DNA of 64,000 bases from an uncultured virus (IMG/VR IMGVR_UViG_3300020182_000024). Lineage: Duplodnaviria; Heunggongvirae; Uroviricota; Caudoviricetes. This document shows, in pieces, positions 1 through 47,019 of the stretch. The notes under the pieces are model-generated. The model ran no database searches. It saw only the letters and a list, made by a program, of their open reading frames with translations, and had not been told where the DNA came from. Each line of letters begins with the position of its first letter. Positions within the stretch are counted from its first letter, which is position 1. Position numbers and translations under genes: made by a program. Location of the stretch: IMG/VR virus record IMGVR_UViG_3300020182_000024. One strand, written 5' to 3'.

Positions 1-56
1 AGCTTATATCTCCGTAACTTAGGTTACATAACTATGCCTGATAATTGAAATAACAT

Positions 57-85
57 TTGACCACTAAGTTATAAAGGTGTATCAT
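57..85 (+). promoter_or_regulatory. sigma70-type promoter
   Basis: TTGACC-17 nt-TATCAT upstream of cassette array A. Confidence 0.6.
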
Positions 86-219
86 AGCATACATAACAAT
101 AAGAGAGATTACTATGATGGAATAGTATTTTACTTATAATCTAATAGGTTATAAAGTTTACTACTGTATTCTATCACGGTAAGTCCTCTTGATTCTGAGT
201 GCCTGTAAGAAAAGTAAAT

Positions 220-378
220 ATGTGGAGTGGGGATGTGTTCTATTTAAAATTAAAGCAGCTTGTGCGTGATGCGGATAAATATACACCTCAAGAAATATCA
301 AACGCACTTAGCAGACTAAAAGAAGTGGCTGACCACCAGCAGTGGGAGCTAACAATGTCTAAAATGGGTGTCTCATGA
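220..378 (+). CDS. small hypothetical protein (52 aa, below ORF-track cutoff)
   Basis: Hand translation MWSGDVFYLKLKQLVRDADKYTPQE...KMGVS; TGA stop lies in the left core of attC-like site A1. Confidence 0.55.
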   Translation: MWSGDVFYLKLKQLVRDADKYTPQEISNALSRLKEVADHQQWELTMSKMGVS

Positions 379-444
379 CCTATATGTAAACTGAGAGGAA
401 CGAAGAATGAGTGACGAGTCAAGTTTGACACCGTTGTTATGTTT
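374..444 (-). mobile_element. attC-like site A1 (left core degenerate, GAC)
   Basis: CATGAC-5nt-TGTAAACT ... AGTTT[G]ACA-5nt-GTTATGTTT; imperfect inverted repeat with an extra G in the right arm. Confidence 0.7.
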
Positions 445-589
445 GCCAACTTTTCAGGCTGCTAGAAGGGCTTGCGGACTTTTTGAGAGGGAGTATATCG
501 GGCAGAACAAGAAAGAACTTTGGGAGTGGGCTGTAAAAACTTCACTGAAAGAGCGTGAGAAAATTGAGCGAGATTTACAGAAAACATAA
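407..589 (+). CDS. cassette-borne hypothetical protein
   Basis: ORF starts inside site A1; bounded by GTTATGTTT (436) and its reverse complement AAACATAAC (582). Confidence 0.7.
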   Translation: MSDESSLTPLLCLPTFQAARRACGLFEREYIGQNKKELWEWAVKTSLKEREKIERDLQKT

Positions 590-669
590 CCTTATTTTTA
601 GCTGCGGCGGTACGCAGCATGAAGTAAAGCAGTTTTATAACCGTCTGCTATAAAATGGTTGTTATGTGT
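582..669 (-). mobile_element. attC-like site A2
   Basis: AAACATAAC ... ATTTTTAGCTGCGG ... CCG[T]CTGCTA[T]AAAAT ... GTTATGTGT hairpin with two extra bases in the right arm. Confidence 0.8.
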
Positions 670-682
670 TTTTTAATTAAGG

Positions 683-880
683 GTGGTAAATATTATGGCG
701 GATAATTGGTTAAGTGTTGAGGATAGTTTACCAGATGACGGTAATTACGAAGTTAAAGTGGTAAATAACGGCAAGGAATTGGTAGCAAAAAGGAGATTGA
801 TTAAAGGGCATTGGTTTGGTGGTTGTAGACCATTTACGGATGGCGAGAAAGTAACGCACTACAAAGCTACTGACACATAA
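683..880 (+). CDS. cassette-borne DUF551-like small protein
   Basis: WLSVEDSLP...VTHY pattern; bounded by GTTATGTGT (661) / ACACATAAC (873). Confidence 0.7.
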   Translation: MVNIMADNWLSVEDSLPDDGNYEVKVVNNGKELVAKRRLIKGHWFGGCRPFTDGEKVTHYKATDT

Positions 881-953
881 CCTAATTGTATGCGGCTACC
901 GAAGCAGCGCGTAGGTAGTCCGAGCGAAGCGACATGACATAGTTGTTATGTGT
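873..953 (-). mobile_element. attC-like site A3
   Basis: ACACATAAC-5nt-TGTATG..GGCTACC..GGTAG[T]CC..GCGAAGC..CAT[G]ACA-5nt-GTTATGTGT. Confidence 0.85.
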
Positions 954-973
954 GAATTACGGGAGATAGAAAG

Positions 974-1204
974 ATGAGTGAAAGAGTTGGAACGCTAAAG
1001 AGCTATGTAGAAGCACCAAAGTGGGCAGCATTTCCAAAGTTTTTAAAAAATACCTGTTTTATGTATGACCTTAAAGTTATCTATATGGATATAGACAAAG
1101 GCTGGATACGTGAAACTGTAAGATTCAAAGTGGAAGGCGGCGAGTCTAATTTACGCAGACTGCAAAAAGCCATAGATATTGGCGTGGAAGAGTACAACAC
1201 ATAA
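974..1204 (+). CDS. cassette-borne hypothetical protein
   Basis: RBS GGAG; bounded by GTTATGTGT (945) / ACACATAAC (1197). Confidence 0.75.
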   Translation: MSERVGTLKSYVEAPKWAAFPKFLKNTCFMYDLKVIYMDIDKGWIRETVRFKVEGGESNLRRLQKAIDIGVEEYNT

Positions 1205-1317
1205 CACTGTAATTATACGTCGTTATTTTGTGTCAGCTTGACGTATAATTACAAAATCATCTTAACAAATACAGTAATAATCAATGGCTTACATAAACAG
1301 ACGTGTTTAATTGCGTC
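1201..1317 (-). mobile_element. attI-like array-terminal site, copy 1
   Basis: Near-identical inverted copy at 21173-21288; 13-bp inverted repeat GTAATTATACGTC/GACGTATAATTAC; IHF consensus AATCAAtggcTTA at 1279-1291; distal GACGTGTTTAATTGCGTC. Confidence 0.65.
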
Positions 1318-1350
1318 CATTATAATTTAACCTAAACGTAAGGAGTTTTT

Positions 1351-1626
1351 ATGAGTAATACTAAAGATCCAGTAGAAATAGCTCACAATGAATATCACAA
1401 CTCCTTAGTGGATATAACTCAAGAAATGATTGATAGTGAATATGAGAACTTTCTTTCTAAATTAGATAATAAAGATAATGATAGTGAAGTATTGGTGATA
1501 GATTCAGTTGTGCAGTATAATGAGCATATTAATAACATCCTCTTAGCACAAAGTGAACAAGAAATACTAGATTCTGTAAGAGAGTTTAGAGATATGATTA
1601 AGACTAATGTAGTGGGAGAGTTGTAA
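1351..1626 (+). CDS. hypothetical protein
   Basis: ORF with AGGAG RBS. Confidence 0.75.
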   Translation: MSNTKDPVEIAHNEYHNSLVDITQEMIDSEYENFLSKLDNKDNDSEVLVIDSVVQYNEHINNILLAQSEQEILDSVREFRDMIKTNVVGEL

Positions 1627-2198
1627 TGAAAAAGGCAGATTATATAGCACTTGCTGTTGATTTAGAAAAACATAAAGATTTAATAGAAGCAGATTATGAT
1701 ATAAACTGTTTAAGATCAGTTAAAGATAAGATATTCAAGTTTGAGCTTATTGAAGATTATGGCTGGGTAATACCTGAACATGTCAATGTAAATCCTTATT
1801 GGTTTAGTATTAACAATGAAGTAAGGGCTGGTACTTATGGAGGAGATACTAACAGGTCAATATCTTGGGAAGATGATGGTAAAGATCCTCTAGGAGAGTT
1901 TCTGTTGGTTGTTGGTTTCTCAACAGGTGCATACTTCTTTGGGGAGGCTTATGACACTGAGTTTTTTAAGAGATTCTTCTTAGAGTTAGAGAGATACAAA
2001 CCTAAATTTAAAGATAGTCACAATCATGTACTGTACTTCTCTAAAGATGAAGCCGGAGTTTTACTTCAAGACTATGACAATATAGTAAGTAAGTATAGAA
2101 AGCTTTACAGAGAAGAGGGGGATAAACGAAGAGCTAAGGTTTTACGAGAAGAGTTAAGAAAACTGGAGAGTAGTGATGTCTCAAGTAGTCACAGATGA
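1626..2198 (+). CDS. hypothetical phage protein
   Basis: 190-aa ORF coupled to the upstream gene. Confidence 0.8.
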   Translation: MKKADYIALAVDLEKHKDLIEADYDINCLRSVKDKIFKFELIEDYGWVIPEHVNVNPYWFSINNEVRAGTYGGDTNRSISWEDDGKDPLGEFLLVVGFSTGAYFFGEAYDTEFFKRFFLELERYKPKFKDSHNHVLYFSKDEAGVLLQDYDNIVSKYRKLYREEGDKRRAKVLREELRKLESSDVSSSHR

Positions 2199-2472
2199 AT
2201 ACTTAGCAACAGCTCTCCGGCAAGCCGCTAATAAGTTAGATAAGCAACGACTAGAGATAGAAGCTTTAAAGGGTAATACTAATCCTCTAAAGGAAGATAT
2301 AACGATATATGATTTTATCCCTCTTATACGTAAATCTAAAACTAATGAACAGTTGAAGTTAATAGTTGATCTGATAGATAATTTACATAGAACAGATAAC
2401 AGTTTAATAGTAGAAGAAGATTGGCTATTATTGACGAGGTTAGTGCAGGGTAATAAACATAAGGAGGATTAA
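2173..2472 (+). CDS. hypothetical protein
   Basis: ORF in operon. Confidence 0.7.
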   Translation: MMSQVVTDEYLATALRQAANKLDKQRLEIEALKGNTNPLKEDITIYDFIPLIRKSKTNEQLKLIVDLIDNLHRTDNSLIVEEDWLLLTRLVQGNKHKED

Positions 2473-2475
2473 TAA

Positions 2476-3003
2476 GTGATAGTAGAGAAAGCAAAAAGAT
2501 TTGCTAGGCAAAAACACTCAGAGATTAATCATCTAAGAAGGTATACTGATCTTCCATACATAACACACCCAGCGGTAGTTGTTAGTATATTAAAAACTAT
2601 CCATCACACAGATGATATGTTAGCAGCAGCGTGGTTACACGATACTGTAGAAGATACTGACACTACTCTAGACGAGATATATTTAAATTTTAATGATGAG
2701 ATAGGTGATCTGGTAGAAATGCTTACGGATGTTAGTAAGCCAAGTGCTGGTAATAGGGAGATTAGGAAGGCTTTAGACCGTGAACATATAACTAAGGCAT
2801 CCTCAGAAGCAAAGACTATAAAACTAGCAGATTTAATAGATAACTCTGAAAGTATCATCCAACATGATCCTAAATTTGCTAAAGTTTATATGAAAGAGAA
2901 AGCACTTTTATTAGAAGTGTTGAAAGAAGGAGATAAGCAGCTTTGGTTACTAGCTAAGGCTATAGTAGATAAATATTTTAATAATAAGGAATTAAAGTGG
3001 TAA
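2476..3003 (+). CDS. HD-domain hydrolase, SpoT/MESH1-like
   Basis: R-x-Y..PYITHP, AAWLHDTVEDT and IKLADLIDN motifs. Confidence 0.85.
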   Translation: MIVEKAKRFARQKHSEINHLRRYTDLPYITHPAVVVSILKTIHHTDDMLAAAWLHDTVEDTDTTLDEIYLNFNDEIGDLVEMLTDVSKPSAGNREIRKALDREHITKASSEAKTIKLADLIDNSESIIQHDPKFAKVYMKEKALLLEVLKEGDKQLWLLAKAIVDKYFNNKELKW

Positions 3004-4004
3004 ATAAAGTAAAATGTCAAACACCAAAATCTACACCAACGTATGATTATCCAGCAGCTATTGAGGCTGTAGAGGCACAACATGATATATTCTGGCTACC
3101 TACAGAACCCAAAGTAGAGAAGGATTTACATTGTATTAAAACAGAGTTAACACCAGCAGAGTACCATGGAGTAATAACTACATTAAAATTATTCACATTA
3201 TATGAGCAAATTGCAGGTGACGAGTACTGGGGAGGTAGATTCAAACGTATGTTCCCCCGTCCAGATTTCAAAAGGATGGCATCTGCATTCGCTAATGTAG
3301 AGTTGAATGTACACGCACCTTTTTATCAACGAGTGGATGAGATATTAGGTTTAAATTCGGATGAGTTTTATAATAGTTTTACAGACGATGGAGTATTGAA
3401 ATCTCGTATGAATTTCCTAGATAATTGTGTGAGTGATAAGGATGATTTATTCTCAGTAGGTACATTCAGTATGATAGAGGGGTGTATTCTATACTCTAGT
3501 TTCTCATTCTTAATGCACTTTCAAGCGGAAGGTAAAAATAAAATACCTAATATACATTCAGGACTAACCTTCTCCACTAAAGATGAAAACTTACATTCAG
3601 AAGGAGGAGCTTGGGCATTTAGAACGCTACTTCAAGAAAAGAGAGATGCTAATCTAATAACAGATAAAGAAATAGAAATACTCAATAGTAGATTATATGA
3701 AGCGGCTAAAGCCATCTATGAACATGAGTGCCATATAATTGATATGGTATTCTCTAAAGGTAATATAAAAGGAATAACAGAGACACAAATGAAGAATTTT
3801 ATGCAAAGTAGGTTAGATTTAGTATTAGAGACTTTAGGGCTTAATAAAATGTATTCTCCTACGTATAATCCCATATCAAAATGGTTTTATAAGATGATAG
3901 GGAGTGATTCTCAACATGATTTTTTTGCAAAATTAGGATCTTCCTATAATCGTAACTGGTCTGAGTCTGGATTCTCTTGGAAGGTAGGTGGTTTAAATGG
4001 ATAA
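2997..4004 (+). CDS. nrdB: ribonucleotide reductase class I beta subunit
   Basis: FWLPTE, ELNVHAPFY, EGCILYSSF, DENLH, DFF motifs. Confidence 0.93.
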   Translation: MVNKVKCQTPKSTPTYDYPAAIEAVEAQHDIFWLPTEPKVEKDLHCIKTELTPAEYHGVITTLKLFTLYEQIAGDEYWGGRFKRMFPRPDFKRMASAFANVELNVHAPFYQRVDEILGLNSDEFYNSFTDDGVLKSRMNFLDNCVSDKDDLFSVGTFSMIEGCILYSSFSFLMHFQAEGKNKIPNIHSGLTFSTKDENLHSEGGAWAFRTLLQEKRDANLITDKEIEILNSRLYEAAKAIYEHECHIIDMVFSKGNIKGITETQMKNFMQSRLDLVLETLGLNKMYSPTYNPISKWFYKMIGSDSQHDFFAKLGSSYNRNWSESGFSWKVGGLNG

Positions 4005-5700
4005 CGATTTAAGTATTTTCGAGGAATTATCAGTAGAACGTAAGAGATTACAAAAAGAAGGTAAACTTCCAGAGTTCTTTACTACTATGGGTTGGCAGGT
4101 GTTTAAGAGTAAGTATCTACATGATGCTACTACTTACGAAGAGCAAATTGATCGTATTGTGAATACAGTATCTAATTATTGCCCTACTAAAAAGGCGTAC
4201 TTTAAGAAACGCTGGAAAGATATGCTAATGAATAATCATGCTTATCTGGCAACACCTACTTTAGCTAATACGGGTACTAATAGAGGTTTAAGTGTAAGCT
4301 GCTCTGGTGGTGAAATTACAGATGATATATATGGTTTTGGAGATGCTAGGACAGAGTGTAGTGTACTATCTCAAGAAGGTTTTGGTACAAGTTCTAATCT
4401 AGGCTCTATCAGAGAAAGGGGTTCTCCTATTTCAAGAGGAGGTAAAGCTAACGGAGTGTTGCCTGTATTTGAAGATATGGTTAAGATGGCAGAAAATGTA
4501 AGTCAAGGTGGGACTAGACGGGGGGCTTGGGCTGGATACTTACCACTAGAGCATGGAGATTTCTGGGAGGTAGCTGATTTTGTTAAGAATAATCCAGAAG
4601 GTGCTAATGTAGGTTGGAATATATATGATAGTACAATCAAAAAATTAAATCAAGGTGATACAGACATACAGGCACGTTACCAACGATCATTACTGGTGAA
4701 GTGCATACATGGCAAGGGATATTATTACTTCCCAGATAAGGTGAATAGGGCTTCCCCTCAGATGTATAAAGATTTAGGGTTAAAAAGTTTAGCTTCGAAT
4801 TTATGTACGGAAATAACATTACATGCAGACAAAGATCATTCATATTCTTGTGTATTATCTGGAATGGTAGGTACAACGTGGGATGAATGGAAAGACACAG
4901 ATGCAGTTTATTGTATGACTGTATTCTTAGATTGTTTAATAAGCGAGTTCCTATCTCTAGCTAAAGATATTAGAGGATTGGAGAAGATAGTAAGAGGTAC
5001 GGAGAAAGGTAGAGCACTTGGCTTAGGTTTTAGTGGGCTGCATTCTTTATTCCAGAAAAAGAGTTTACCTTTCGGTTGCTTAGAGGCTCACTTTTTAAAT
5101 AATGAAATATTCAGTCATTTACAAGAAGAATCCCTAAAGGCATCTCAGTGGATGGCTAAAGAGTGGGGAGAACCTGAATGGTGTGAAGGCTATGGTGTCA
5201 GAAATACACACAGAACTGCATTAGCTCCTAACGTAAGCAGTTCTGTTATTTTTGGAAGCGAGTCTCAGGGGTGTACTCCTTGGTATGGAAATGTTTACTC
5301 AGAGGGTTCTGCATCTGGATCTTTATTCAGAGTTAACCCTTTATTCATAGAATTATTAAAGAAGTATAATAAGTATGATGAAGATACTTTACAATTAGTA
5401 TTAAATGATAATGGGAGTTGCCAAAAATTAGACTTCTTAACTGAGCATGAAAAAGATGTATTTAAAACTGCATTTGAGATCAACCAAAAGGATATACTGA
5501 GGCTTGTATCAACAAGACAACCTAAGATTTGTCAAGCACAGTCTACCAATTTGTTCATAGATGCAGATGAAGATGAAGCTTACATATCAGAAATACATCA
5601 AGAAGCTTTCGAAGATGAAAATATACATAGTCTGTACTACCTTAGAGGCAGGGCTGGTGTTACAGCATCTAAAGGTGGTTGTAGTGCTTGTGAAAGTTAG
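3997..5700 (+). CDS. nrdA: ribonucleotide reductase class I alpha subunit
   Basis: TPTLAN, VSC, QGGTRRGA, SNLCTEI, APNVSSS, SLYY and C-terminal CSACES. Confidence 0.95.
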   Translation: MDNDLSIFEELSVERKRLQKEGKLPEFFTTMGWQVFKSKYLHDATTYEEQIDRIVNTVSNYCPTKKAYFKKRWKDMLMNNHAYLATPTLANTGTNRGLSVSCSGGEITDDIYGFGDARTECSVLSQEGFGTSSNLGSIRERGSPISRGGKANGVLPVFEDMVKMAENVSQGGTRRGAWAGYLPLEHGDFWEVADFVKNNPEGANVGWNIYDSTIKKLNQGDTDIQARYQRSLLVKCIHGKGYYYFPDKVNRASPQMYKDLGLKSLASNLCTEITLHADKDHSYSCVLSGMVGTTWDEWKDTDAVYCMTVFLDCLISEFLSLAKDIRGLEKIVRGTEKGRALGLGFSGLHSLFQKKSLPFGCLEAHFLNNEIFSHLQEESLKASQWMAKEWGEPEWCEGYGVRNTHRTALAPNVSSSVIFGSESQGCTPWYGNVYSEGSASGSLFRVNPLFIELLKKYNKYDEDTLQLVLNDNGSCQKLDFLTEHEKDVFKTAFEINQKDILRLVSTRQPKICQAQSTNLFIDADEDEAYISEIHQEAFEDENIHSLYYLRGRAGVTASKGGCSACES

Positions 5701-12637: not shown

Positions 12638-12745
12638 GCTCCTATAAGCCATCCTAAGGCCACTTGATACTACCCCTACCTACCCTATTACTTCATCTTA
12701 AAACGCTCTGAAACAGCCCTTAAAACGCCATCTCAGGGGTCTATG
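12638..12745 (+). repeat. dispersed ~108-bp element, copy 1
   Basis: GCTCCTATAAGCC..ACCCCTACCTACCCTA..AAAACGCTCT..TCTCAGGGGT. Confidence 0.8.
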
Positions 12746-15203: not shown

Positions 15204-15311
15204 GCTCTTGTAAGCCTCTCTAAGCTATCCTAATATCACCCTATACTACCCTACAGGGTATACTCTAAAACGCTCTCAGAATGGCTAAAAAGGGGCTTCT
15301 CGAAGGTGTTT
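15204..15311 (+). repeat. dispersed ~108-bp element, copy 2
   Basis: GCTCTTGTAAGCCTCTCTAAG..ACCCTATACTACCCTAC..AAAACGCTCTCAGAATGG..GGCTTCTC. Confidence 0.85.
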
Positions 15312-16476: not shown

Positions 16477-16584
16477 GGCTCTGTAAGCCTCTGTACGGGC
16501 TTGTTAATCTACCCTATACTACCCTACAGGGTATAGTCTAAACGTTGCTTAGAATGCAATCTGAGGTCATATAGAGCTATGTTT
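16477..16584 (+). repeat. dispersed ~108-bp element, copy 3
   Basis: GCTCTGTAAGCCTCTGTACGGGC..ACCCTATACTACCCTACAGGGTA..TAAACG..TTAGAATG..TATGTTT. Confidence 0.85.
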
Positions 16585-18633: not shown

Positions 18634-18742
18634 TTTAGACCCCTGAGAACGCCCATAGAGGCCTATATTAGAGCGTTTTAGCCTTACCTAATAGGGTAGT
18701 AAGGGTATGAACAACAAGCCCGTACAGGGGCTTATATTAGCT
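18634..18742 (-). repeat. dispersed ~108-bp element, copy 4
   Basis: Reverse complement: TAAGCCCCTGTACGGGC..ACCCTTACTACCCTA..AAAACGCTCT..GGGCGTTCTCAGGGGT. Confidence 0.85.
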
Positions 18743-20762: not shown

Positions 20763-20922
20763 TTCTTATAAGCAATAGGGAAAACGCCGCTCATTTATTA
20801 TAAAATAATAAAGGGTTACAAATTCACCCAACACATCTATAAGTTTATATAACTAAAAGTTATAAGCGAATCATCTCTTATTCCAAAAAGGAATATAAAT
20901 TTTTATTATAAAATCTGTGTAA

Positions 20923-21157
20923 ATCCATTTTTCTGTTTTTATATGAAAATACCCATTTGACCAATAGCCTTTTTTCTATATAACCAAAAAGAATAAGTAT
21001 ACCACCCCTTATAACTAGAAGAGATATACATTTTCAATATCAAATCTATTTTATATCCATTTTTGTATAAAAATATGAAAAAGCCCATTTGACTAAATTT
21101 TACTATTAGATATAAATTGAATTTTACATTTTTATATGAAAATCACCGTTTGACTAA
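20923..21157 (+). repeat. three copies of an ATATGAAAA..CCRTTTGACYAA motif
   Basis: Copies at 20941, 21073 and 21134; a fourth at 25519. Confidence 0.75.
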
Positions 21158-21172
21158 ATTTTATAAAGAGTT

Positions 21173-21288
21173 GACGCAATAAAACACGTCAATCTAAATT
21201 TAACTTTTAATATCAACAACTTGTATATCCGCGCGCAAAGATATACGTCAAAGTGACTCAAAATAACGACGTATAATCACAGTGTTAT
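21173..21288 (+). mobile_element. attI-like array-terminal site, copy 2
   Basis: Inverted near-copy of 1201-1317; IHF consensus TATCAAcaacTTG at 21211-21223; ends ...ACAGT-GTT at 21284. Confidence 0.65.
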
Positions 21289-21617
21289 CAGTATAAGTTT
21301 TCACTGTAGAGCGTACCGCCATCCGCGGTGTCGCCTCCAACCCTTCGTATTATCTGCCCCGCAGCTTCGGCAACTTTCCATGCCTCCACTCTACTTAGAA
21401 ACTCTCCTTTCTGGTTAATAAACCCCTGTTCAGATGCAACCCAGCCGTACCTTTCGGCAGCCATCAATTCTTCTTTTTGGTTGTGCATAAATCCATCCCA
21501 GTGCCTAACGCCAATCAACAAATGTTTTGTTGCTAGGTGCTGATTGGCAGCACACACTATTCGCTCACTGATAACAACTTCATCAATTTGACTCATTCCG
21601 CTTCGCTCCATTCTCAA
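21288..21617 (-). CDS. cassette-borne hypothetical phage protein (likely start MSQIDE at 21596)
   Basis: IVCAAN..RHWD..QGF..F.SR.EA..LYSENLY; bounded by GTTATCAGT (21284) / ACTGATAAC (21567). Confidence 0.8.
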   Translation of the reverse strand: MRMERSGMSQIDEVVISERIVCAANQHLATKHLLIGVRHWDGFMHNQKEELMAAERYGWVASEQGFINQKGEFLSRVEAWKVAEAAGQIIRRVGGDTADGGTLYSENLY

Positions 21618-21637
21618 TTTATGTAAAGGTTAGCTGT
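21567..21637 (+). mobile_element. attC-like site C2
   Basis: ACTGATAAC-5nt-CAT[C]AATTTGA..GCTTCGC..TCAATTTATG-5nt-GTTAGCTGT; canonical attC layout on the + strand. Confidence 0.85.
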
Positions 21638-21846
21638 CAAAAGCATTCTTTAAGCCTTTCTTCTAACCCTTCTGCTTCGCTCTCACTTGGTATGCCATCA
21701 ACGACAATTATAGTTCTGTCATCTTGCCACTCATAATCTGAGTAGCCCTCATTTTCCAGCGTATCCTCAATTTGAACCTTTCCGCAAATATTTCCTTCAC
21801 CTACATTTAGCGTGATGTAATATTCTTCTACCTGATAAACTGGCAT
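21637..21846 (-). CDS. cassette-borne acidic hypothetical protein
   Basis: Bounded by GTTAGCTGT (21629) / ACAGCTAAC (21871); AGGAG RBS. Confidence 0.8.
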   Translation of the reverse strand: MPVYQVEEYYITLNVGEGNICGKVQIEDTLENEGYSDYEWQDDRTIIVVDGIPSESEAEGLEERLKECF

Positions 21847-21870
21847 ATCTCAATCTCCTGTTAAATTATT

Positions 21871-21923
21871 ACAGCTAACAACGTAATCGTGCCTGACGTT
21901 TCCCACCTCGCGCGATTAGTAGT
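21871..21923 (+). mobile_element. degenerate attC-like site C3
   Basis: ACAGCTAAC..TAATCG..CGATTA hairpin; distal GTT core missing. Confidence 0.55.
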
Positions 21924-22727
21924 CTAAATACTCAATTACACAACTACCAATCATATTTTCTTTAATCACGGCTTCTGGATTATTGTAACAACCAAAACCC
22001 TCATCACTTGCATCGTTATCATCTTCTACATATTTATCTAATACTTCCGTAAGTACATCGACACAATCAAAAAGCGCATCTAAGTTACCGCTAGTTTCTT
22101 CTAAAAATCTTTCTCTATTAAATCTCATTTTTTCTCCTAGTATTATAACACTCTTACAGCAGCACTCATAAAACTATCTATATTTATGTATATATCATAG
22201 TTCTTAATATAACATACATTATTATAAATGTAAATATCTCTATCCTTATATTTTCCAACTTGTTCCTTACATTTCTCTAATTGTACATCAACAAATTGGG
22301 GAGGTGTAAGTAAGATAGATAATATTAGTAATCTAGACAACAACATGATATAAGAATAATTGAATTGCATAAATACCAGCCAAACCCACTAATCCCCATC
22401 CTAACCAATATAATACTAAACTAGGCTTATGTAAGTCAACTCTTGTAATCATATATCTATCATTATTCCGAAGATAATTAATAAATAATAAAATAGCTAA
22501 TAGTAAGCTACCACCAAACTTAATCCAAATATCTAACATGATTCTTCTCCTAACTGGTTAATTTCAAATAACCCTACTTCCACATCTTCCATCCAGTAGT
22601 GATTTCTATTACGTGACATACTATCTACTATAGCATCTACAGTTAATACACTCTTACTAGCTGTATGGAAGTAGATTTCATCACTTTTAGTGTTGTATGC
22701 AATCCAATATTTGTTATCTTCGTTCAT
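21916..22727 (-). other. four small hypothetical CDS, two hydrophobic
   Basis: ORFs 21916-22128, 22143-22370, 22333-22539, 22533-22727. Confidence 0.7.
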
Positions 22728-23340
22728 CTCGCCACCTCGTTATGGTCTTTCTATCTTTATTAAGCATTTCTGCCACTTCAGAGATATTATACCCATCTTC
22801 TAATAAATGTAAAGCCTTTTCTTTAGAAGATTCAATAATATTATCCTTATTCTCTAGTATATCTAATCTAGTGTTAGTATCCATGGCATTTTTAATTAAT
22901 ACGCCTGCTATAGTTTCTAAATCTTCTACTCTTTTAGTGAGCTGCACTTGATGACTCAATGTGTTCAATAGTACATTCAAACTAGATGCTGTCTTTAAGC
23001 TACGTTTAGTGTGCTTATTCATAACACCTTTATCCACCATTTCAAGCGTTACAGGATGTTCTTTGTGAGAGTTAATTACATAATCTAACACACTTTTGTA
23101 TAGTGGGCTGTGTTTAATCTCATCTATCCATTGATCTGATTTATTAGTCTTATCTGCTACATATCTAAGAGCTATATCAGCATTATCTCCCGTATCTAAT
23201 ACATACCCATAGGCATCCTTAGTATCTTCCTTGGAGGCTCTTTTTCGAGGATGTATAGAGCCTTTATCAATAAGATCTTGTATTAACTCTAGTTTATCCT
23301 TAGCTTGGATAGCAATTAGTTGTTTTAAGTCTTTACTCAT
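22714..23340 (-). CDS. DNA-binding protein with C-terminal helix-turn-helix
   Basis: ALHLLEDGYNISEVAEMLNKDRKTITRW preceded by a coiled coil. Confidence 0.75.
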   Translation of the reverse strand: MSKDLKQLIAIQAKDKLELIQDLIDKGSIHPRKRASKEDTKDAYGYVLDTGDNADIALRYVADKTNKSDQWIDEIKHSPLYKSVLDYVINSHKEHPVTLEMVDKGVMNKHTKRSLKTASSLNVLLNTLSHQVQLTKRVEDLETIAGVLIKNAMDTNTRLDILENKDNIIESSKEKALHLLEDGYNISEVAEMLNKDRKTITRWRDERR

Positions 23341-23641: not shown

Positions 23642-23763
23642 AAAACATACCCCTAGAAGGCCATATAAGCCATTCTGAGAGCGTTTTACACTTTTTATGT
23701 ACTACCCTACCACCTATATTAAGTGAGCTAATAAGGGGCTTAATGGGGCTTCTCAGGGGTCTA
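23642..23763 (-). repeat. dispersed ~108-bp element, copy 5 (central box inverted)
   Basis: Reverse complement: TAAGCCCCTT..TAGGGTAG..AAAACGCTCTCAGAATGG..TTCTAGGGGTATGTTTT. Confidence 0.8.
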
Positions 23764-23768
23764 TATAA

Positions 23769-25162: not shown

Positions 25163-25459
25163 TTAGTAATAAAACTGCAAATTGTTTTTAGTTTTATAAC
25201 CTTCTTGCCTAAGTGCGTTAATCATATTATCTCTACCTACAGGATTACTAGTCACTAGCTCCACTTTTCTTGGTAAGACTTCATTATTTATTGCCCACAT
25301 CATAATATCATAACCACTCTCACAATCTCCTAGATCATGGTCGAAGATTACACAAGTTATATACGCTTCTAGCTTCTGTAGGACTTGTTTAGCAGCATCA
25401 GGTGTTCTAGCTATAATATCCGCAGGTGTATTTCGTAGATCATCTATCAGTAAGTACAT
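25163..25459 (-). CDS. cyclic-phosphate-processing-type receiver-domain protein
   Basis: LLIDDLR..ART..FDHDLG..GYDI..W..VTSNPVG..NM. Confidence 0.75.
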   Translation of the reverse strand: MYLLIDDLRNTPADIIARTPDAAKQVLQKLEAYITCVIFDHDLGDCESGYDIMMWAINNEVLPRKVELVTSNPVGRDNMINALRQEGYKTKNNLQFYY

Positions 25460-25566
25460 AATTATTAACTCCTCTATTTAAGTTGCAACCATTATTACAT
25501 ATCCATTTTTGTATGTCAATATGAAAATCCCCGTTTGACTAAAATTAATATAATAGATAATAAGGG

Positions 25567-26286: not shown

Positions 26287-26387
26287 AAGCCCCTGTACGG
26301 ACAAGTAGCTCAAGGGTATGCTACCCTACAGGGTCACACCTAAACGTGCCGTGGTGGGGCTTATATGGCGTTCTCAGTGGTATGTTT
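26281..26387 (+). repeat. dispersed ~108-bp element, copy 6
   Basis: AAGCCCCTGTACGG..CTACCCTACAGGGT..TAAACG..TATGGCGTTCTCAGTGGTATGTTT. Confidence 0.75.
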
Positions 26388-31802: not shown

Positions 31803-34800
31803 ATGACTAACATTACAGGAGACATAGAGACTAATAATCTACTCAATAATGAGTCTATTAATTACAATGCTAGCCCATATTGTCTTAAAGATACTTATAA
31901 GACCCACTGTATTGTATTAGAGATACATGAGACTAATGAGATTATAGCCTTCTACGATGGCGATAAGTATATACTAGATGGTCGCGAGTTTATTGAGAAA
32001 GATGATAAATATACTTATGAGCTAAAAGATTATGAACCTATTAAATATACACATTATCAATTAGGTGAGTTCCCTAATTATATTAAAGGTATTAAGGATT
32101 TAAATAAGGTTATATTTCACAATGGGATTAACTTCGATTTTCTCTCTTGTAAACTTTATTTTGATATGGATTATACTATTGGTGGTTTAGATGGAGAGTC
32201 TGATACATGGTGTGGTAGAGAAGTAGATATTGTAGATACAATGATCTTATCTAAAACATTAAATAGTGATCGTTTCTGTGGGCATAGCTTAGATAAGTTA
32301 TCTAAAGTGGCTGGAGGTGCTGAAAAGATAGATTTTAGACCCCATGTACCTAAAAAAGATATGTACAATACATTTGCAGCGGATATGTTATACTATAACA
32401 TTTTTGATGTGAAGTCTAACACAGATGTATATAATTACTTAGAACATGAACGTACACAGGATGGTTGGGATTGGGATGCAGCTATTAGATTAGAGAAGAA
32501 AACGGCTGAAATAGTAACTCGCTCATCGCATCGTGGGTTCAAGTTTGATGTGAAGTTGGCTGAAAAGTGTATACATGAGTTAGACGAACTTATGTCAGAA
32601 CGTAGACAACGTGTAGAACCATTACTCCCACCTCGTGCAGCTACTAAGAAGTTCCTTAAAGAACATACACCTCCAGCATCACAAGTATTGACTAAGGATA
32701 TTACACTACCTAAGAAATTCTTTAATAAGGATTTAAGTTTATCTAAGACAGCTACATCTTGGTTAGAGAAGTGGGATGGTGAATATGATGATGATAAGAA
32801 GATTATTAAAGTGCAGGGTAACGTATTAAAGCGTGATACAACTACAGGCTTTCCAGAGGTAGCATTCACACAACAAACTGTAGCAGCACACATGGTTAAT
32901 TTTGTTAATAAACATAATGGTGTTATTAATGAAGATGATATGACAGTGGAGTTATTTGGAGAGGTTTATAAGCTGCCTGTTGCTGTTGAGCCGTTGAAGA
33001 CGACTATGGTTGCTGAAATAAAAAATACAACTCATATTAAAGAGTGGCTGGTATCTTTAGGATGGCAACCATCTGAATATAAGATGAAGGATATTACTCT
33101 AAAGTCTGGTACTAAGATTAAACGTGACTCAGAAGATTTAGAAAAAGCTGTAGATAGATATATTGCTGAAACACTAGAGTCAGAGTTTTGTAAAGATAGA
33201 TGCGCCCAGTTAAAAGCTAGACCTACTGAACATAGCCTGAAACGTATTATTATGGAAAAAGCTAATAAGTATGGATGTAAAGTATTGACCAGCCCCTCCT
33301 TCACAATCGGACAGGAAAAAGAACTATGTAAGGATTTAGAGCGTATCGCTGAGAGATTTCCTTATGTACAAGATATTGTAGAATACCTTACATATAAACA
33401 TAGACGTTCAAGTATTTTAGGCGGAGATGTAGATTGGGATAGTGATGAAGAGCCTGAAAAAGGGTATATGGCTCATGTAAGGGATGATGGCAGGATAGCT
33501 GCACCAGCAGATACTCTAGGTGCTGCAACAGGAAGAATGCGCCATAAGAATATTGTTAATGTCCCAAGAGTTTCTTCTCTATATGGCAAGGAAATGAGAT
33601 CCTTGTTTAAAGTAGAAGACGATTGCTTAAAAATTGGAAGCGATATGGCTAGTTTAGAAGCACGTCTTGAGGGACATTATTGTCATAAATATGATGTTGA
33701 AGGTAAACCTTATTGTAAATCCTTAACCTTATCTCAACCTAATGATGTACACTCATTGACTGCTAATTATATATCAAGTATTATAGGTAAAGATTTCTCA
33801 AGATCTAATGCTAAATCTGTTAAATACTCGTGCCTACCTGTAGAAAATACAGAGGTTCTGACAACTTCTGGTTGGAAGTATTATCATGAGTTATGTGAAG
33901 GAGATGAGATACTTAATTATAATGTTGACACGAATATGATCGAGAGGGATTTTATTTCTAAACTCCATTATTATAAAGATGCAGAAATAATGAAAGTAAG
34001 TAATAAGTTTTATGGTTTTGAAGCAACACCTGATCATAGATGGTATGGTTGGAATAGGAGAATGAAGGGTAGTGGAAAGACTGCAACTCGCTTCAATGAG
34101 TATAAATTCTTTACAACGGAAGAGATGAACTCCGAATATAATATTTTATGTGCAGCTCCCTATAAGGGTGGATCGTCTATTATTACCAAAGATGAGAGTG
34201 CATTAGTAGCTTGGCTATTATCAGATGGTTACTATTTCTGGTCAGATAGGAGTGAGACTACCTCTGCGAGTAATGGCAGACTTAAAGGGATAGTTGCCAG
34301 TATATCTCAATCTAAGAATAAGTTTTATAAAGAAGTTGAACAAATATTGGGAATTAATAATATAGAGTATACTAAAGATTTCTATAAGAAAGATAATGGA
34401 AATGATGTTTATACTTATAGATTAAAAAGTAATGATATAAGAGATTTTATGGGTAGAGTTGTAAAATCTAGGAATCAGAAACATGAAGTAGATTGGGCAT
34501 CTTGGGTACTCGATTTAAGTAAGGATGCTTTAGATTCTTTTATCTATAATTTCTGGTTAGCAGATGGTGCATCTAAAGGGATGGAATTTAATAAATGCAC
34601 TAAAATATATCAAAATGAAGGGAAAATAGCGGATGCAGTTGCCTTGGCACTTTACTTACAAGGCAATCGGATATCTATTACTGATCATACACAAGAAAAG
34701 AAATGTAAGAATATTACTCAATTAAGGTTGTCCCATTTTGGCATGGGAAATACTAAAAAAGAGATGATAGAGAATAAGGATGTATTTTGTTTAACTGCAC

Positions 34801-35603
34801 CTAATAGTACTTTTATATTTAGACAAAACGGATTTATAAGTATTACAGGTAATTGCACATTTGGAGGAGGTGCGTCTAAGATTGCTAATATTATTGGAGA
34901 ATCTAGTTCTGTGGGTGAGATAGTTTTTGATTCATTTTGGAAATCAGCGGCACCCCTTACTAAGTTAAAGGTTGCTGTAGAGAAATGGTGGGAAGCTAAA
35001 GGCAATAGGAAGTTTATAAAGGGCTTAGATGGGAGGCAAGTTAGAACTAGATTTAAACATGCACTATTAAATTCTTTGTTACAGTCAGGTGGTGCTATTG
35101 CTACTAAAACTATGGCTGTATTTCACGATCAGTTATTAACAGAAGAAGGATTACAAATTGACTTCTTTAAAGATGATTGGAAGAATACAGAGTTTAATCA
35201 ACTTATGATTATTATGCATGATGAGATAGCATTAGAGGAGTCTAAAAGTAGGTTCAAATTTAAAAAGTTTAACAGTGAAGAAGATGCCTTGACATTCTCT
35301 AAAGAAGATGATAGAATATGGAGTGAGGTAATAGAAGGTAAAAATAATACTTACTTTCTTAATATTGACGGTATAAACGATTCTCAATTATATAAGACTA
35401 AAGGAGAGGCTAAGTCTGCATTTAAAAGGATAGAAGGTAAGTGTAAGGTGTTACCATCTATAGGAAATTTGTATTATTTAGCACATACTAAAGCTGGAGA
35501 GTTAATATCTAAAGCTGTGGAGATGACTAATAATCATTATAAACTAAAAGTACCCTTGGAGATGGGGTATGCTGTGGGAGTGTCGTGGGCTGATACACAT
35601 TAA
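31803..35603 (+). CDS. family A DNA polymerase with 3'-5' exonuclease and intein
   Basis: DIET, HNGINFD, TGRMRH, DMASLEAR, RSNAKSVKYS|CTFG, LNSLLQS, MHDE, SWADTH. Confidence 0.95.
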   Translation: MTNITGDIETNNLLNNESINYNASPYCLKDTYKTHCIVLEIHETNEIIAFYDGDKYILDGREFIEKDDKYTYELKDYEPIKYTHYQLGEFPNYIKGIKDLNKVIFHNGINFDFLSCKLYFDMDYTIGGLDGESDTWCGREVDIVDTMILSKTLNSDRFCGHSLDKLSKVAGGAEKIDFRPHVPKKDMYNTFAADMLYYNIFDVKSNTDVYNYLEHERTQDGWDWDAAIRLEKKTAEIVTRSSHRGFKFDVKLAEKCIHELDELMSERRQRVEPLLPPRAATKKFLKEHTPPASQVLTKDITLPKKFFNKDLSLSKTATSWLEKWDGEYDDDKKIIKVQGNVLKRDTTTGFPEVAFTQQTVAAHMVNFVNKHNGVINEDDMTVELFGEVYKLPVAVEPLKTTMVAEIKNTTHIKEWLVSLGWQPSEYKMKDITLKSGTKIKRDSEDLEKAVDRYIAETLESEFCKDRCAQLKARPTEHSLKRIIMEKANKYGCKVLTSPSFTIGQEKELCKDLERIAERFPYVQDIVEYLTYKHRRSSILGGDVDWDSDEEPEKGYMAHVRDDGRIAAPADTLGAATGRMRHKNIVNVPRVSSLYGKEMRSLFKVEDDCLKIGSDMASLEARLEGHYCHKYDVEGKPYCKSLTLSQPNDVHSLTANYISSIIGKDFSRSNAKSVKYSCLPVENTEVLTTSGWKYYHELCEGDEILNYNVDTNMIERDFISKLHYYKDAEIMKVSNKFYGFEATPDHRWYGWNRRMKGSGKTATRFNEYKFFTTEEMNSEYNILCAAPYKGGSSIITKDESALVAWLLSDGYYFWSDRSETTSASNGRLKGIVASISQSKNKFYKEVEQILGINNIEYTKDFYKKDNGNDVYTYRLKSNDIRDFMGRVVKSRNQKHEVDWASWVLDLSKDALDSFIYNFWLADGASKGMEFNKCTKIYQNEGKIADAVALALYLQGNRISITDHTQEKKCKNITQLRLSHFGMGNTKKEMIENKDVFCLTAPNSTFIFRQNGFISITGNCTFGGGASKIANIIGESSSVGEIVFDSFWKSAAPLTKLKVAVEKWWEAKGNRKFIKGLDGRQVRTRFKHALLNSLLQSGGAIATKTMAVFHDQLLTEEGLQIDFFKDDWKNTEFNQLMIIMHDEIALEESKSRFKFKKFNSEEDALTFSKEDDRIWSEVIEGKNNTYFLNIDGINDSQLYKTKGEAKSAFKRIEGKCKVLPSIGNLYYLAHTKAGELISKAVEMTNNHYKLKVPLEMGYAVGVSWADTH
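33831..34853 (+). mobile_element. intein (341 aa) with LAGLIDADG-type motifs
   Basis: CLPVENTEVLTTSGW..TPDH..WLLSDG..FWLADG..VFCLT..ITGN followed by Cys+1. Confidence 0.93.
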
Positions 35604-46130: not shown

Positions 46131-46135
46131 TTTGT

Positions 46136-46169
46136 AAAACCCACTAGACTAACAATCCAGTGGGTTTTT
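46136..46169. terminator. bidirectional terminator
   Basis: AAAACCCACT...AGTGGGTTTT between convergent blocks. Confidence 0.75.
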
Positions 46170-46174
46170 ATTGC

Positions 46175-46711
46175 CTATAGGTTTCTCTTTCTTGTTATTT
46201 TAATATACCAACCCCTCACTTTAACCGTACAATCTTCATCTGAACTTAAAGAAAAATGACCTCCTCCATTTAATGTTCCCTCATTCCCTATATAAAAGCT
46301 GTTATACTCTGTAATAGAGTGAGGCGCAGCACTCTTATAATTAAACTGTGTTATAAATGGTAGATTATAAGTGTTACTGCCTAAATTCAATTTAACATCT
46401 ATTGCAGTGTTAGGTGTAGTTGTAGTAACTTCTATGTCTAATCTTATATCGACAACATCTCCTAATGATAACATGCTCCAATCAAACTGACCTGTACTAG
46501 CATTCCATACATCCTCAATACCTCTAGGTGCATACTGTCTTGTAGAATAAGCCCCTAATCCATCATTAGTCAATGCCACTTCTCCTGCCGACTCTAGCAC
46601 TGTAATAGGGGTTACTAGAGTAGCTGTATCATTATAATCCAGAAACCCTGTCTCCCAATAGCCATATAAATTATTGTGATGAGGAGTGTTAGTATTAGCT
46701 ATAATAATCAT
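46175..46711 (-). CDS. hypothetical protein, possibly virion-associated
   Basis: Beta-rich ORF at the end of the late block. Confidence 0.6.
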   Translation of the reverse strand: MIIIANTNTPHHNNLYGYWETGFLDYNDTATLVTPITVLESAGEVALTNDGLGAYSTRQYAPRGIEDVWNASTGQFDWSMLSLGDVVDIRLDIEVTTTTPNTAIDVKLNLGSNTYNLPFITQFNYKSAAPHSITEYNSFYIGNEGTLNGGGHFSLSSDEDCTVKVRGWYIKITRKRNL

Positions 46712-46995
46712 ACAATCACCTCTGGGGTTAGCTCAGCACCTAGTGTAGAGATAGCTTTAGCCCATATTCTTAAACTTCCTGTTGGTATTATGGCAAGAGA
46801 ATTAGGAAACCTATGAGGGTCTAGTATCTTACCTTTTGTATCATTATGAGATGGCTCAGAAGATTGTTCTATTAGTTTTATAGATCCAGTACCTTCATTA
46901 TATAAAGAGAAAGCTGTGCCTACACTAATACCTGATTCTGTATTTACATCTACCCAAGATTGCCCTATAGATATATTCGGCAATGTCTCTGCCAT
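46708..46995 (-). CDS. hypothetical protein, possibly virion-associated
   Basis: Small beta-rich ORF coupled to the next gene. Confidence 0.6.
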   Translation of the reverse strand: MAETLPNISIGQSWVDVNTESGISVGTAFSLYNEGTGSIKLIEQSSEPSHNDTKGKILDPHRFPNSLAIIPTGSLRIWAKAISTLGAELTPEVIV

Positions 46996-47019
46996 ATTAT
47001 TTTCCTTTATTTATATATG

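What the first reader, a model, noticed from the sequence alone, without database searches (positions are those of the whole stretch)
1201..1317. Conserved ~115-bp attI-like terminal site with IHF box, shared by two arrays 20 kb apart
Seen: after the last AAC of array A the sequence is ATAACACTGTaATTATACGTCGTTATTTTGtGTCAgcTTGACGTATA, about 50 unrelated bases, then GACGTGTTTaATTGCGTC. The same two blocks occur inverted at 21173-21288 with spacing conserved to within 1 bp. The unconserved middles each hold a WATCAANNNNTTR IHF consensus (1279-1291; 21211-21223), in opposite orientation relative to the site. GACGY half-sites form two inverted pairs. Established: core + IHF bend + arm sites is typical of tyrosine-recombinase attachment sites; IHF dependence is not a standard attI feature. 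Inference: this is the entry point for new cassettes, and two inverted copies could also invert the intervening 20 kb.
Basis: partly seen in the sequence, partly recalled or inferred. Interest (0 to 1): 0.88.

Follow-up and report, generated by a model that had tools for sequence, protein, structure and literature searches.

The report
End cap of phage gene-cassette arrays
A conserved 117-base DNA module caps both arrays of small swappable genes in this marine phage and recurs in unrelated phages exactly where cassettes join, so it is probably the docking site of a virus-borne, integron-like gene-exchange system whose enzyme is still unknown.

Summary
The window is part of a lytic-type marine myovirus. 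It has two inverted copies of a 116-117-bp module (1201-1317 +; 21173-21288 -). Each follows the stop codon of the last ORF of an array of small ORFs separated by attC-like hairpins.

The same module, with sharp ends, occurs in unrelated siphovirus-like contigs. One of these again has two inverted copies. There are two subtypes (alpha, beta), each conserved over its whole length. In marine metagenomes its contig depth is 5-10 times that of its flanks, and at least 7 different cassettes sit upstream of it.

Hairpin polarity predicts cleavage at AA|C just after each ORF, which is where the module starts. It therefore sits at the attI position of arrays whose genes are inverted relative to classical integrons.

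Removing beta cap plus three cassettes (972 bp) rebuilds a phage promoter. A relative has at least 13 cassettes at that locus. Other arrays of this attC family end in different caps after the same AAC|ACT joint.

No integrase was found (0 of 9 array-bearing contigs). The module was not found in bacterial species genomes. There is no evidence that the 20 kb inverts.

Best reading (about 0.4): an attI-like, itself mobile docking site served in trans. Phage CALINs are published; I found no description of this cap.

The parts
1201..1317 (+). Alpha-type end cap of array A: junction ATAAC (1201-1205), block 1 (1206-1247), middle, block 2
   Evidence: It is 95% identical over 117 bp to the alpha cap of the unrelated contig G002.
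1208..1253 (+). Block 1 inverted repeat: 14-bp arms 1208-1221 / 1240-1253 with an 18-nt loop. The half-sites TATACGTC / GACGTATA are invariant in all 6 copies
   Evidence: DNA fold -10.8 kcal/mol, z -3.4. Invariant columns in alignment A2. Only 8 bp of the stem are kept in the beta type, so what is conserved is sequence, not pairing.
1279..1291 (+). IHF-consensus match in the alpha middle
   Evidence: 1 hit, shuffle P about 0.01. The same motif is present in G002-alpha.
1300..1317 (+). Block 2: GACG-N10-CGTC inverted repeat, outer end of the cap
   Evidence: 0.13 expected by shuffle. Flagged as terminator-like.
21173..21288 (-). Beta-type end cap of array B: block 2 at 21173-21190, IHF-like motif at 21211-21223, block 1 at 21242-21283, junction at 21284-21288
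   Evidence: It is 85% identical to G002-beta and 83% to L059-beta.
199..1204 (+). Array A as far as visible: four small ORFs (199-378, 407-589, 683-880, 974-1204). GC is 0.40, against 0.34 downstream
   Evidence: No Pfam or PHROG hit. Bases 1-884 are 100% identical to part of the G002-like contig L059.
582..669 (+). attC-like imperfect palindrome (ACATAAC...GTTATGT)
   Evidence: Its right half is shared (89% over 44 nt) with the first attC-like site of G002's beta array.
873..953 (+). attC-like imperfect palindrome. The identity with L059 breaks at its AAC box (881-884)
   Evidence: A loose end at 884 appears in run X2.
21288..22142 (-). Array B: three ORFs (21288-21617, 21637-21846, 21916-22128) with attC-like sites at 21569-21636 and 21873-21920 (degenerate)
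   Evidence: ORF 21288-21617 matches phrog_839. GC is 0.47, 0.40 and 0.32.
21150..21171 (+). -35 box and 16-nt spacer of a D1-type phage promoter copy, cut off by the outer end of the beta cap
   Evidence: Deleting 21172-22143 (972 bp) brings a TATAAC hexamer (22144-22149) to the -10 position, as in D1 copy 1.
22143..22370 (-). Backbone gene whose stop lies in the palindrome GTTATAA(C), where array B begins
   Evidence: In the relative G407 the homologous gene ends TGATAA|C and is followed by a full attC and at least 13 cassettes.

Best explanation
The 117-bp element is the conserved end cap of integron-type gene-cassette arrays carried by marine phages, and it most likely works as their docking site, that is, attI-like. 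SHOWN: it starts exactly at the AAC that follows the last cassette ORF. It has sharp ends on both sides. It comes in two subtypes, alpha and beta, that are shared by phages with no protein in common. Different cassettes lie against it in different genomes. INFERRED: a recombinase supplied in trans cleaves the folded ORF-sense strand of an attC-like hairpin at AA|C and joins it to the cap, so new cassettes enter next to the cap. That recombinase would be a host integron integrase or another tyrosine recombinase, and it is not encoded in any contig seen. The four or five GACGYRW half-sites and the central IHF-type bend site would build the nucleoprotein complex. The cap itself has cassette-like boundaries: on the antisense strand it begins TT (in 3 of 5 distinct flanks) and ends G. 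It was probably delivered into phage backbones the same way, at GTT/AAC targets, which would explain how an identical module reached unrelated phages.
For: 1. Junction and polarity. In 2 of 2 attC sites next to a bona fide intI (G182), the single-base bulges lie on the 5' arm of the top strand. In 6 of 6 phage elements that fold as one hairpin, they lie on the 3' arm of the ORF-sense strand. The ORF-sense strand is therefore bottom-strand-like, and cleavage is predicted at the AA|C right after each ORF, which is exactly where the cap begins.

2. Recurrence. There are six distinct copies: W-alpha, W-beta, G002-alpha, G002-beta, L059-beta and G003. All follow a cassette ORF, and their invariant blocks and length (116-117 bp) are kept. 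W shares no protein with G002 or G003, even at E < 0.5.

3. Community data. Contig depth over 1201-1300 is 95 against roughly 10-15 on the flanks in X1, and 47 against 1-4 in X3. Loose ends at 1200/1201 lead into at least 4 different upstream sequences.

4. Turnover next to the cap. W and L059 share three distal cassettes at 100% identity but differ from the AAC of the attC at 873-953 onward. The L059-type joint is also seen in run X2. G002 and L059 share beta cap and flank (96%) but no cassette.

5. The array locus is a hot spot. G407, a relative of W, has at least 13 cassettes where W has 3. L100 and L098 have flanks 93% alike but unrelated arrays.

6. Other arrays of the same attC family end ACACATAAC|ACT..., followed by other structured caps.

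7. An IHF-type motif is present in 4 of 6 copies, P about 0.01 each.

8. Published precedent. Phage attC sites are IntI1 substrates (PMC9892861, section 3.4 and passages read). IntI inserts cassettes at GWT genome sites (bioRxiv 10.1101/2022.09.11.507474, passages read).
Against: No recombinase was found. None appeared among 99 window ORFs scanned with PHROGs or 71 ORFs of G002 and G003. PF00589 was found in 0 of 9 array-bearing viral contigs, all fragments except G405, which is 92% complete.

The cap was not found in 185,579 species genomes by an exact 17-mer: 15 hits, 0 true. It is therefore not known to sit beside any intI.

The attC subtype was not enriched in any of 401 sampled Gammaproteobacteria, so no donor or host is known.

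G405 keeps an array at the syntenic locus with no cap, so a cap is not needed for an array to exist.

The GACG half-sites do not look like IntI-binding GTTA repeats (recalled from memory).

The polarity test rests on 2 control sites from one integron.

The W/L059 difference could equally come from a single attC x attC crossover between two phage genomes.
Confidence: 0.4

Rival explanations
1. Passive boundary module, PeSL-like. The cap is a conserved terminator or regulatory motif at the end of a moron block. It spreads and swaps neighbouring genes only by homologous recombination between phages, with no dedicated site-specific reaction.
For: Block 2 is flagged as terminator-like in both window copies. 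In G002-beta, L059 and L116 a clear intrinsic terminator and a new promoter follow the cap position. In T4-like phages, conserved terminator/promoter motifs act as exchange points between unrelated sequences (PMC4122927, abstract read; PMC2839356, listing only). A 117-bp patch at 95% identity in unrelated phages would support homologous exchange.
Against: No sigma-70-type promoter was found in the cap on the ORF strand. The T-rich tail is missing in G002-alpha and G003, where a ribosome-binding site follows at once. Homologous recombination does not explain why the left edge always coincides with the AAC of a cassette, nor how the patch first arrived with base-sharp ends in different backbones.
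Confidence: 0.2
2. ORF-less terminal cassette or collapsed attC. The cap is just the last unit of the array, a non-coding cassette or a degenerate attC, carried along without any docking role.
For: In W-B the cap has the boundaries of a unit: it starts with C after AA and ends in AA before the backbone. It holds ATAAC-N16-GTTAT, a minimal pair of core boxes, in 5 of 6 copies. Other caps also hold a GTTAT 5-22 nt after the ATAAC. attC hairpins are prone to deletion by slippage (10.1101/2022.09.11.507474, passage read).
Against: If it were an ordinary cassette it should also be found inside arrays. In all 6 copies and all loose ends seen it is terminal. The 90 bases beyond the mini-palindrome are as conserved as the junction.
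Confidence: 0.15
3. Miniature non-autonomous transposable element (MITE or PATE, for example of the IS200/IS605 type) that inserts 3' of TAAC.
For: It has sharp ends on both sides, conserved ends with a variable middle (alpha versus beta), a hairpin near each end, several copies per genome and high copy number in metagenomes.
Against: Every context seen (6 assembled, at least 1 more in loose ends) is the end of a cassette ORF. None of the 5 distinct downstream flanks shows the rest of an interrupted attC. No other copy occurs in 64 kb of this AT-rich phage despite many TAAC sites. No transposase was seen.
Confidence: 0.1
4. Operator or regulatory site for a DNA-binding protein that controls the downstream genes.
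For: Palindromic half-sites (GACG-N10-CGTC and TATACGTC-N18-GACGTATA) lie just upstream of a ribosome-binding site in G002-alpha and G003 and of a TATAAT in W-alpha.
Against: The downstream genes differ in every context. The half-site is not enriched elsewhere in W: 20 GACGYRW matches against 32 expected. G405 expresses the same downstream gene without the cap.
Confidence: 0.07
5. Inversion switch: the two inverted copies are crossover sites for flipping the 20-kb segment 1318-21172.
For: Two inverted copies share 47 nt at 91% identity. A second phage, G002, also has an inverted alpha/beta pair.
Against: No invertase was seen. Alpha and beta differ in the middle and no alpha/beta hybrid was observed. 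In G002 the pair brackets the arrays, not a comparable segment. Contig data cannot show inversion.
Confidence: 0.03

Closest known systems
attI site of integrons (for example attI1; the attI region seen here next to intI in G182)
   Same: It lies at the G|TT (= AA|C) junction with the first cassette on the strand defined by attC polarity. It is about 100 bp long. In G182 the distance from the intI start codon to the crossover is about 103 bp, and that region holds a 14-bp palindrome. Variable cassettes lie beside a constant site.
   Different: No intI is adjacent or anywhere in view. Cassette ORFs face the site instead of away from it. The site carries GACG-type half-sites and an IHF-type motif. 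It is present in two subtypes and two copies per genome. It has a sharp outer end and seems mobile itself.
CALINs in virulent and temperate phages (Qi et al. 2023, PMC9892861)
   Same: attC-type cassette arrays without an integrase in marine phage genomes. That paper showed phage attC sites to be substrates of IntI1.
   Different: In the parts I read (section 3.4 and passages) no conserved array-terminal module shared between phages is described. Pseudoalteromonas phage H101, which they studied, has no copy of this cap. I did not see their supplementary table of CALIN boundaries.
attG genome insertion sites of integron integrases (Loot et al., bioRxiv 10.1101/2022.09.11.507474)
   Same: Cassettes enter non-integron DNA at a minimal GWT. 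The reconstructed target of array B is G|TT inside the palindrome GTTATAAC. The authors suggest that attI sites derive from such hot spots.
   Different: attG sites are ordinary genome sequences with no conserved 117-bp module. Here the module is conserved and travels between phages.
PeSL promoter-terminator motifs of T4-like phages (PMC4122927, PMC2839356)
   Same: Short conserved non-coding motifs that bound small variable genes in phage plastic regions and act as exchange points.
   Different: PeSLs flank each gene and work by homologous recombination. This cap occurs once per array at its end, abuts an attC-type AAC, and shows no clear promoter.
Lambda-type attP sites and transposon ends (core plus accessory sites plus IHF bend)
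   Same: Several recombinase-type half-sites are arranged around an IHF-consensus site within about 120 bp.
   Different: There is no cognate integrase or transposase. The conserved module stays whole at one end of the inserted block instead of being split into attL and attR.

Membership tests
Integron (IntI + attI + attC cassettes) | Cassette ORFs separated by imperfect palindromes with AAC...GTT core boxes, an unpaired spacer and extrahelical bases | tested here: met
   elements of 60-88 nt with ACATAAC/GTTATGT ends, a 3-4 nt internal loop and a single-base bulge 4-5 pairs further in. Two in array A, two in array B (one degenerate), and more in G002, G003, L059 and L086.
Integron (IntI + attI + attC cassettes) | Integron integrase gene (tyrosine recombinase with the IntI-specific insertion) next to the array | tested here: not met
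   No integrase among 99 window ORFs or 71 ORFs of G002 and G003. PF00589 in 0 of 9 array-bearing contigs. The window is only part of the phage genome.
Integron (IntI + attI + attC cassettes) | attI: a constant site at the G|TT junction with the first cassette on the attC top strand | tested here: met
   The cap abuts the AA|C predicted by hairpin polarity. It is constant across 6 copies with different cassettes.
Integron (IntI + attI + attC cassettes) | attI lies beside intI and is recombined with attC by that integrase | not testable with these tools
   No integrase is known. The exact 17-mer of the cap is absent from species genomes. A recombination assay is needed.
Integron (IntI + attI + attC cassettes) | Cassette ORFs point away from attI (read from Pc) | tested here: not met
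   ORFs run towards the cap in all arrays. The control integron G182 has ORFs on the top strand.
CALIN (cluster of attC sites lacking an integrase) | At least 2 attC sites, as called by IntegronFinder's covariance model, with no intI nearby | tested here: inconclusive
   At least 2 attC-like sites per array and no integrase. IntegronFinder and its attC model are not available here, and Rfam holds no match.
PeSL (promoter-early stem-loop) | A stem-loop terminator directly joined to an early promoter, repeated between variable genes | tested here: not met
   A terminator-like hairpin (block 2) is present, but there is no promoter on the ORF strand. There is one cap per array rather than one per gene.
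MITE / PATE of the IS200-IS605 type | Copies scattered in varied sequence contexts 3' of a target tetranucleotide, with a matching transposase in some genomes | tested here: not met
   All contexts are cassette ORF ends. No transposase was seen. No specific search for an HUH transposase family was run.
Site-specific inversion system | Inverted crossover sites plus an invertase, with both orientations present in the population | tested here: inconclusive
   Inverted sites are present. No invertase was seen. Orientation variants cannot be read from contigs.

The most novel reading that the evidence does not exclude
Marine phages run their own integron-like gene-exchange network. They then recruit a recombinase in trans to load, swap and pass on small genes between unrelated lytic and temperate phages. 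Cassette polarity is inverted so that the genes are read with the phage operon.
Probability: 0.3. Interest if true: 0.85.

Novelty: new variant of a known kind. Interest (0 to 1): 0.68.

Why it matters
Integrons are thought of as bacterial devices. Phage CALINs have so far been read as stray fragments or one-off insertions.

A conserved, mobile docking module that ends cassette arrays in unrelated phages would change that reading. So would 100% identical cassette blocks shared between a myovirus and a siphovirus-like phage. Together they would mean that phages maintain cassette arrays as a working system for acquiring accessory genes.

It also gives a concrete, short DNA substrate, the 117-bp cap plus an attC-like hairpin, with which to fish for the unknown recombinase and to test cassette capture in vitro.

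Tried and rejected
1. Whole genome of the window: not held.
2. Megablast and blastn of the region or the cap against GenBank phages: only a weak ribonucleotide-reductase hit to Alteromonas phage V22, and no hit for the cap.
3. Species-genome scan with the 17-mer: 15 loci, all chance matches.
4. Metagenome scan: 23 loci, 5 true. Three of those are the G002 and G003 contigs under other names.
5. IMG/VR scan for the left end of the window: nothing.
6. Host or donor search: IntI was found in 147 of 401 sampled Gammaproteobacteria. That tally includes the unpublished genomes G043, G145, G300 and G312. The phage attC 12-mer was not enriched in any of the 401, and 7 inspected loci were not attC. I could not reach Bacteroidota genomes because I had no handle for them.
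7. Rfam: no family for cap or hairpins.
8. tRNA scan of the window: none.
9. Pfam on 42 cassette and flank ORFs: only an HTH and a cREC_REC domain, both in backbone genes.
10. The gene downstream of the cap in G002 and G003 (ORF140) is not tied to the cap: G405 has the gene but no cap.
11. The attC pattern scan of IMG/VR gave 44 loci. Many are chance matches in AT-rich coding DNA, as seen in 6 of 7 printed. Only 9 loci have at least 3 same-strand sites.
12. LexA box, CRP/FNR or Fur readings of the half-sites: considered by eye only and dropped, because there was no match.
13. Lay of Logan contigs: no joints were reported. A missing inversion or insertion joint in contigs is no evidence either way.

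Full report
**What the window is.** PHROG scans of 99 ORFs show a lytic-type myovirus. It carries ribonucleotide reductase (2997-5700), endolysin, PhoH/Dda helicase, primase-helicase, DNA polymerase I, and sheath, baseplate, tape-measure and head genes at 46-64 kb. No integrase, recombinase or transposase appeared. GC is about 0.34. There are no tRNA genes. No whole genome is held. The IMG/VR record G001 is 100% identical to 45857-64000.

**The observation.** The quoted sequence is at 1201-1317 and its inverted partner at 21173-21288.
- The repeat finder gives 47-nt arms at 91% complementarity.
- Each block pattern matches twice in the window, against 0.01 expected.
- The four GACG/CGTC half-sites are in place in both copies, and block spacing is 60 versus 59 bases.
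- The IHF consensus is at 1279-1291 and 21211-21223. Only 9 such motifs occur in 64 kb, and shuffle P is about 0.01 per middle.

**Surroundings.** Copy A follows the stop codon of ORF 974-1204. This is the last of four small + strand ORFs separated by GC-rich imperfect palindromes (582-669 and 873-953) that end ACATAAC...GTTATGT. Copy B, read on the - strand, follows the stop of ORF 21288-21617. This is the last of three small ORFs, with attC-like sites at 21569-21636 and 21873-21920; the latter is degenerate. The cassette blocks have higher GC (0.40) than their flanks (0.27-0.34). Arrays of this kind in virulent phages are published as CALINs, and phage attC sites recombine with attI1 under IntI1 (PMC9892861; I read section 3.4 and passages). 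Phage H101 from that paper has no copy of the cap.

**The cap outside the window.** Exact and gapped pattern scans gave the following.
- IMG/VR: contigs G002, G003 and one more G002-like contig (4 true loci of 13 in the gapped scan).
- Metagenomes: 5 true loci of 23, of which L044 and L059 are new.
- Species genomes: none (15 chance hits).
- GenBank phages: none.

G002 again has two inverted copies, one at the end of each of two divergent early operons. G002 and G003 are lambdoid-like siphovirus contigs with cro-like, RecET, SSB, NinG and terminase genes. They share no protein with the window phage even at E < 0.5.

The alignment of six distinct copies shows these invariant parts: TAAC-ACTGT.ATTATACGTCG, TGACGTATA and GACGTGTTT.AT.GCGTC. 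Length is 116-117 bp. There are two subtypes whose middles are also conserved. W-alpha and G002-alpha are 95% identical over 117 bp; W-beta, G002-beta and L059-beta are 83-96% identical. Similarity stops sharply at both ends.

**Community data.** Logan contigs of four marine runs were laid on 1-3000.
- Depth over 1201-1300 is 95 against roughly 10-15 on the flanks in X1, and 47 against 1-4 in X3.
- Loose ends exactly at 1200/1201 lead into at least four different upstream sequences.
- Loose ends at 1247 lead into beta-type middles.
- Loose ends at 1317 lead into the G002-alpha flank.

The cap is therefore a multi-copy unit joined to many cassettes. These are contigs, so they show presence but not absence.

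**Polarity test.** I took two attC sites next to a bona fide intI in genome G182. There the array orientation is fixed by intI, and the cassette ORFs lie on the top strand. Their single-base bulges lie on the 5' arm of the top strand (2 of 2). In the phage elements that fold as a single hairpin, the first bulge lies on the 3' arm of the ORF-sense strand (6 of 6; the other 6 of the 12 phage elements folded otherwise, and a 13th anchor pair, WB1, found no element in that call).

By the established rule for attC (recalled: the strand that recombines carries the extrahelical bases in its 3' arm and is cut at its 5' AA|C), the ORF-sense strand is the one that recombines. The cut then falls right after each ORF, which is exactly where the cap starts. 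On the antisense strand the layout is cap - G|TT - cassette - attC - cassette, that is, the layout of an integron with attI, but with the genes inverted. This rests on only two control sites from one integron.

**Evidence for turnover.**
- L059 is G002-like: its 592-aa ORF is 28-31% identical to a G002 ORF, and it has two tRNA genes. Yet it holds window bases 1-884 at 100% identity. It then diverges at the AAC box of the attC at 873-953 into two other cassettes, a beta cap and a G002-like flank. The same joint appears in run X2.
- G002 and L059 share beta cap and flank (96%) but no cassette.
- G407, a relative of the window phage (66-74% nucleotide identity to 22141-23241), has at least 13 cassettes beginning at the end of the homologue of gene 22143-22370, where the window phage has three.
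- L100 and L098 have flanks 93% alike and unrelated arrays.

**The cap as part of an insertion.** Deleting 21172-22143 (972 bp: beta cap plus three cassettes) joins the -35 box and 16-nt spacer of a repeated phage promoter (D1 copy 3) to a TATAAC hexamer. This matches D1 copy 1. Both joints share two bases (TT/AA), and the target is the palindrome GTTATAAC at the stop of gene 22143-22370. This fits insertion at a G|TT target, as reported for integron integrases at attG sites (10.1101/2022.09.11.507474, passages read). Microhomology-mediated insertion would fit as well.

On the antisense strand the cap begins TT in 3 of the 5 distinct downstream flanks (W-beta, G002-alpha, G003; L059-beta shares G002-beta's flank) and ends G, like a cassette. 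G405 is a 92%-complete relative of G003. At the syntenic locus it has an array ending in a complete attC and no cap. A cap is therefore optional.

**Other caps.** An attC-pattern scan of IMG/VR gave 44 loci, many of them chance matches. Nine loci have at least three same-strand sites. Their arrays end ACACATAAC|ACT..., followed by other structured modules:
- gamma in L116, with the G002-beta-type flank;
- gamma' in L100, L129 and L106, upstream of the homologue of the G003 downstream gene;
- delta in L115;
- epsilon in L133, a 7-5-7 palindrome.

So alpha and beta are one family among several end caps that share the same joint. Earlier notes of this scan describe an 'end-cap unit' and inverted gene polarity in other marine phages. 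I treat these as leads only.

**What is missing.**
- No recombinase: PF00589 was found in 0 of 9 array-bearing viral contigs.
- No host: IntI is common in sampled Gammaproteobacteria (147 of 401; the tally includes four unpublished genomes), but the phage attC 12-mer is enriched in none of them.
- No Rfam family.
- The half-site motif is not used elsewhere in the phage.
- Block 2 is scored as terminator-like in both window copies, but the T-tail is absent in G002-alpha and G003.
- No ORF-strand promoter was found in the cap.
- Nothing bears on inversion of the 20-kb segment.

**Verdict.** The element is real, discrete, conserved across unrelated phages, and tied base-for-base to the cassette junction.

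The best-supported mechanism is an attI-like docking site served in trans (0.4). The rivals are:
- a passive PeSL-like boundary module (0.2);
- an ORF-less terminal cassette or collapsed attC (0.15);
- a MITE (0.1);
- an operator (0.07);
- an inversion switch (0.03).

It cannot be filed as an integron, because the integrase test was not met and gene polarity is inverted. It works like one in layout.

I found no description of such a cap in four literature searches or in the parts of the papers I read. I did not see the supplementary CALIN-boundary table of Qi et al., which may bear on this claim.

Noticed in passing
window 20915-21161 and 25493-25546: Four copies of a roughly 54-nt promoter-like repeat (D1: an upstream ATATGAAAA..CCC.TTTGAC box, then a 16-17 nt spacer and a -10 hexamer). 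Three tandem copies face array B head-on, and the third lacks its -10.
   Followed up: partly
window 12674-12743, 15212-15272, 16485-16545, 18636-18734, 23728-23767, 26287-26347: A second family of 40-70-nt repeats (direct D2 and D8; inverted I1, I2, I4) with a CCCTACAGGGTA core is scattered through the small-ORF region. Function unknown.
   Followed up: no
window 31803-35603: The DNA polymerase I ORF is 1266 aa. Its PHROG matches cover residues 2-678 and about 1000-1266, so roughly 320 residues in between are unexplained (possible intein or inserted domain).
   Followed up: no
window 1-884 = L059 1496-2379: A block of three cassettes plus upstream DNA is 100% identical between this myovirus and a G002-like siphovirus-type metagenome contig. 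This points to very recent transfer between unrelated phages.
   Followed up: partly
L122/L123 (G407), L122 2238 onward: A relative of the window phage carries at least 13 cassettes at the array B locus. They run to the contig end, so its cap is not visible.
   Followed up: partly
L008 9626-9955 (-), L086 2066-2345 (+), L100: The gene just downstream of the cap position in G003-type phages encodes a protein of about 109 aa with a Q/P-rich linker and an SSB-like acidic tail (DDDIPF / DNDIPF). It may be a small ssDNA-binding protein.
   Followed up: no
window 25163-25459 (-): A 98-aa protein matches Pfam cREC_REC (cyclic-phosphate processing receiver domain, E 2e-18) at the head of the leftward operon that ends in array B.
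   Followed up: no
L116 about 4525-4600, L100/L106, L115, L133 (oriented coordinates): Other end-cap families follow the same ACACATAAC|ACT joint. Gamma caps hold two GGAATCC boxes and an inner GTTAT...ATAAC pair. The epsilon cap is a 7-5-7 palindrome.
   Followed up: partly
L059 3174-3248 and 3443-3518: tRNA-Arg(TCT) and tRNA-Asn(GTT) genes lie just upstream of the cassette array in the G002-like contig.
   Followed up: no
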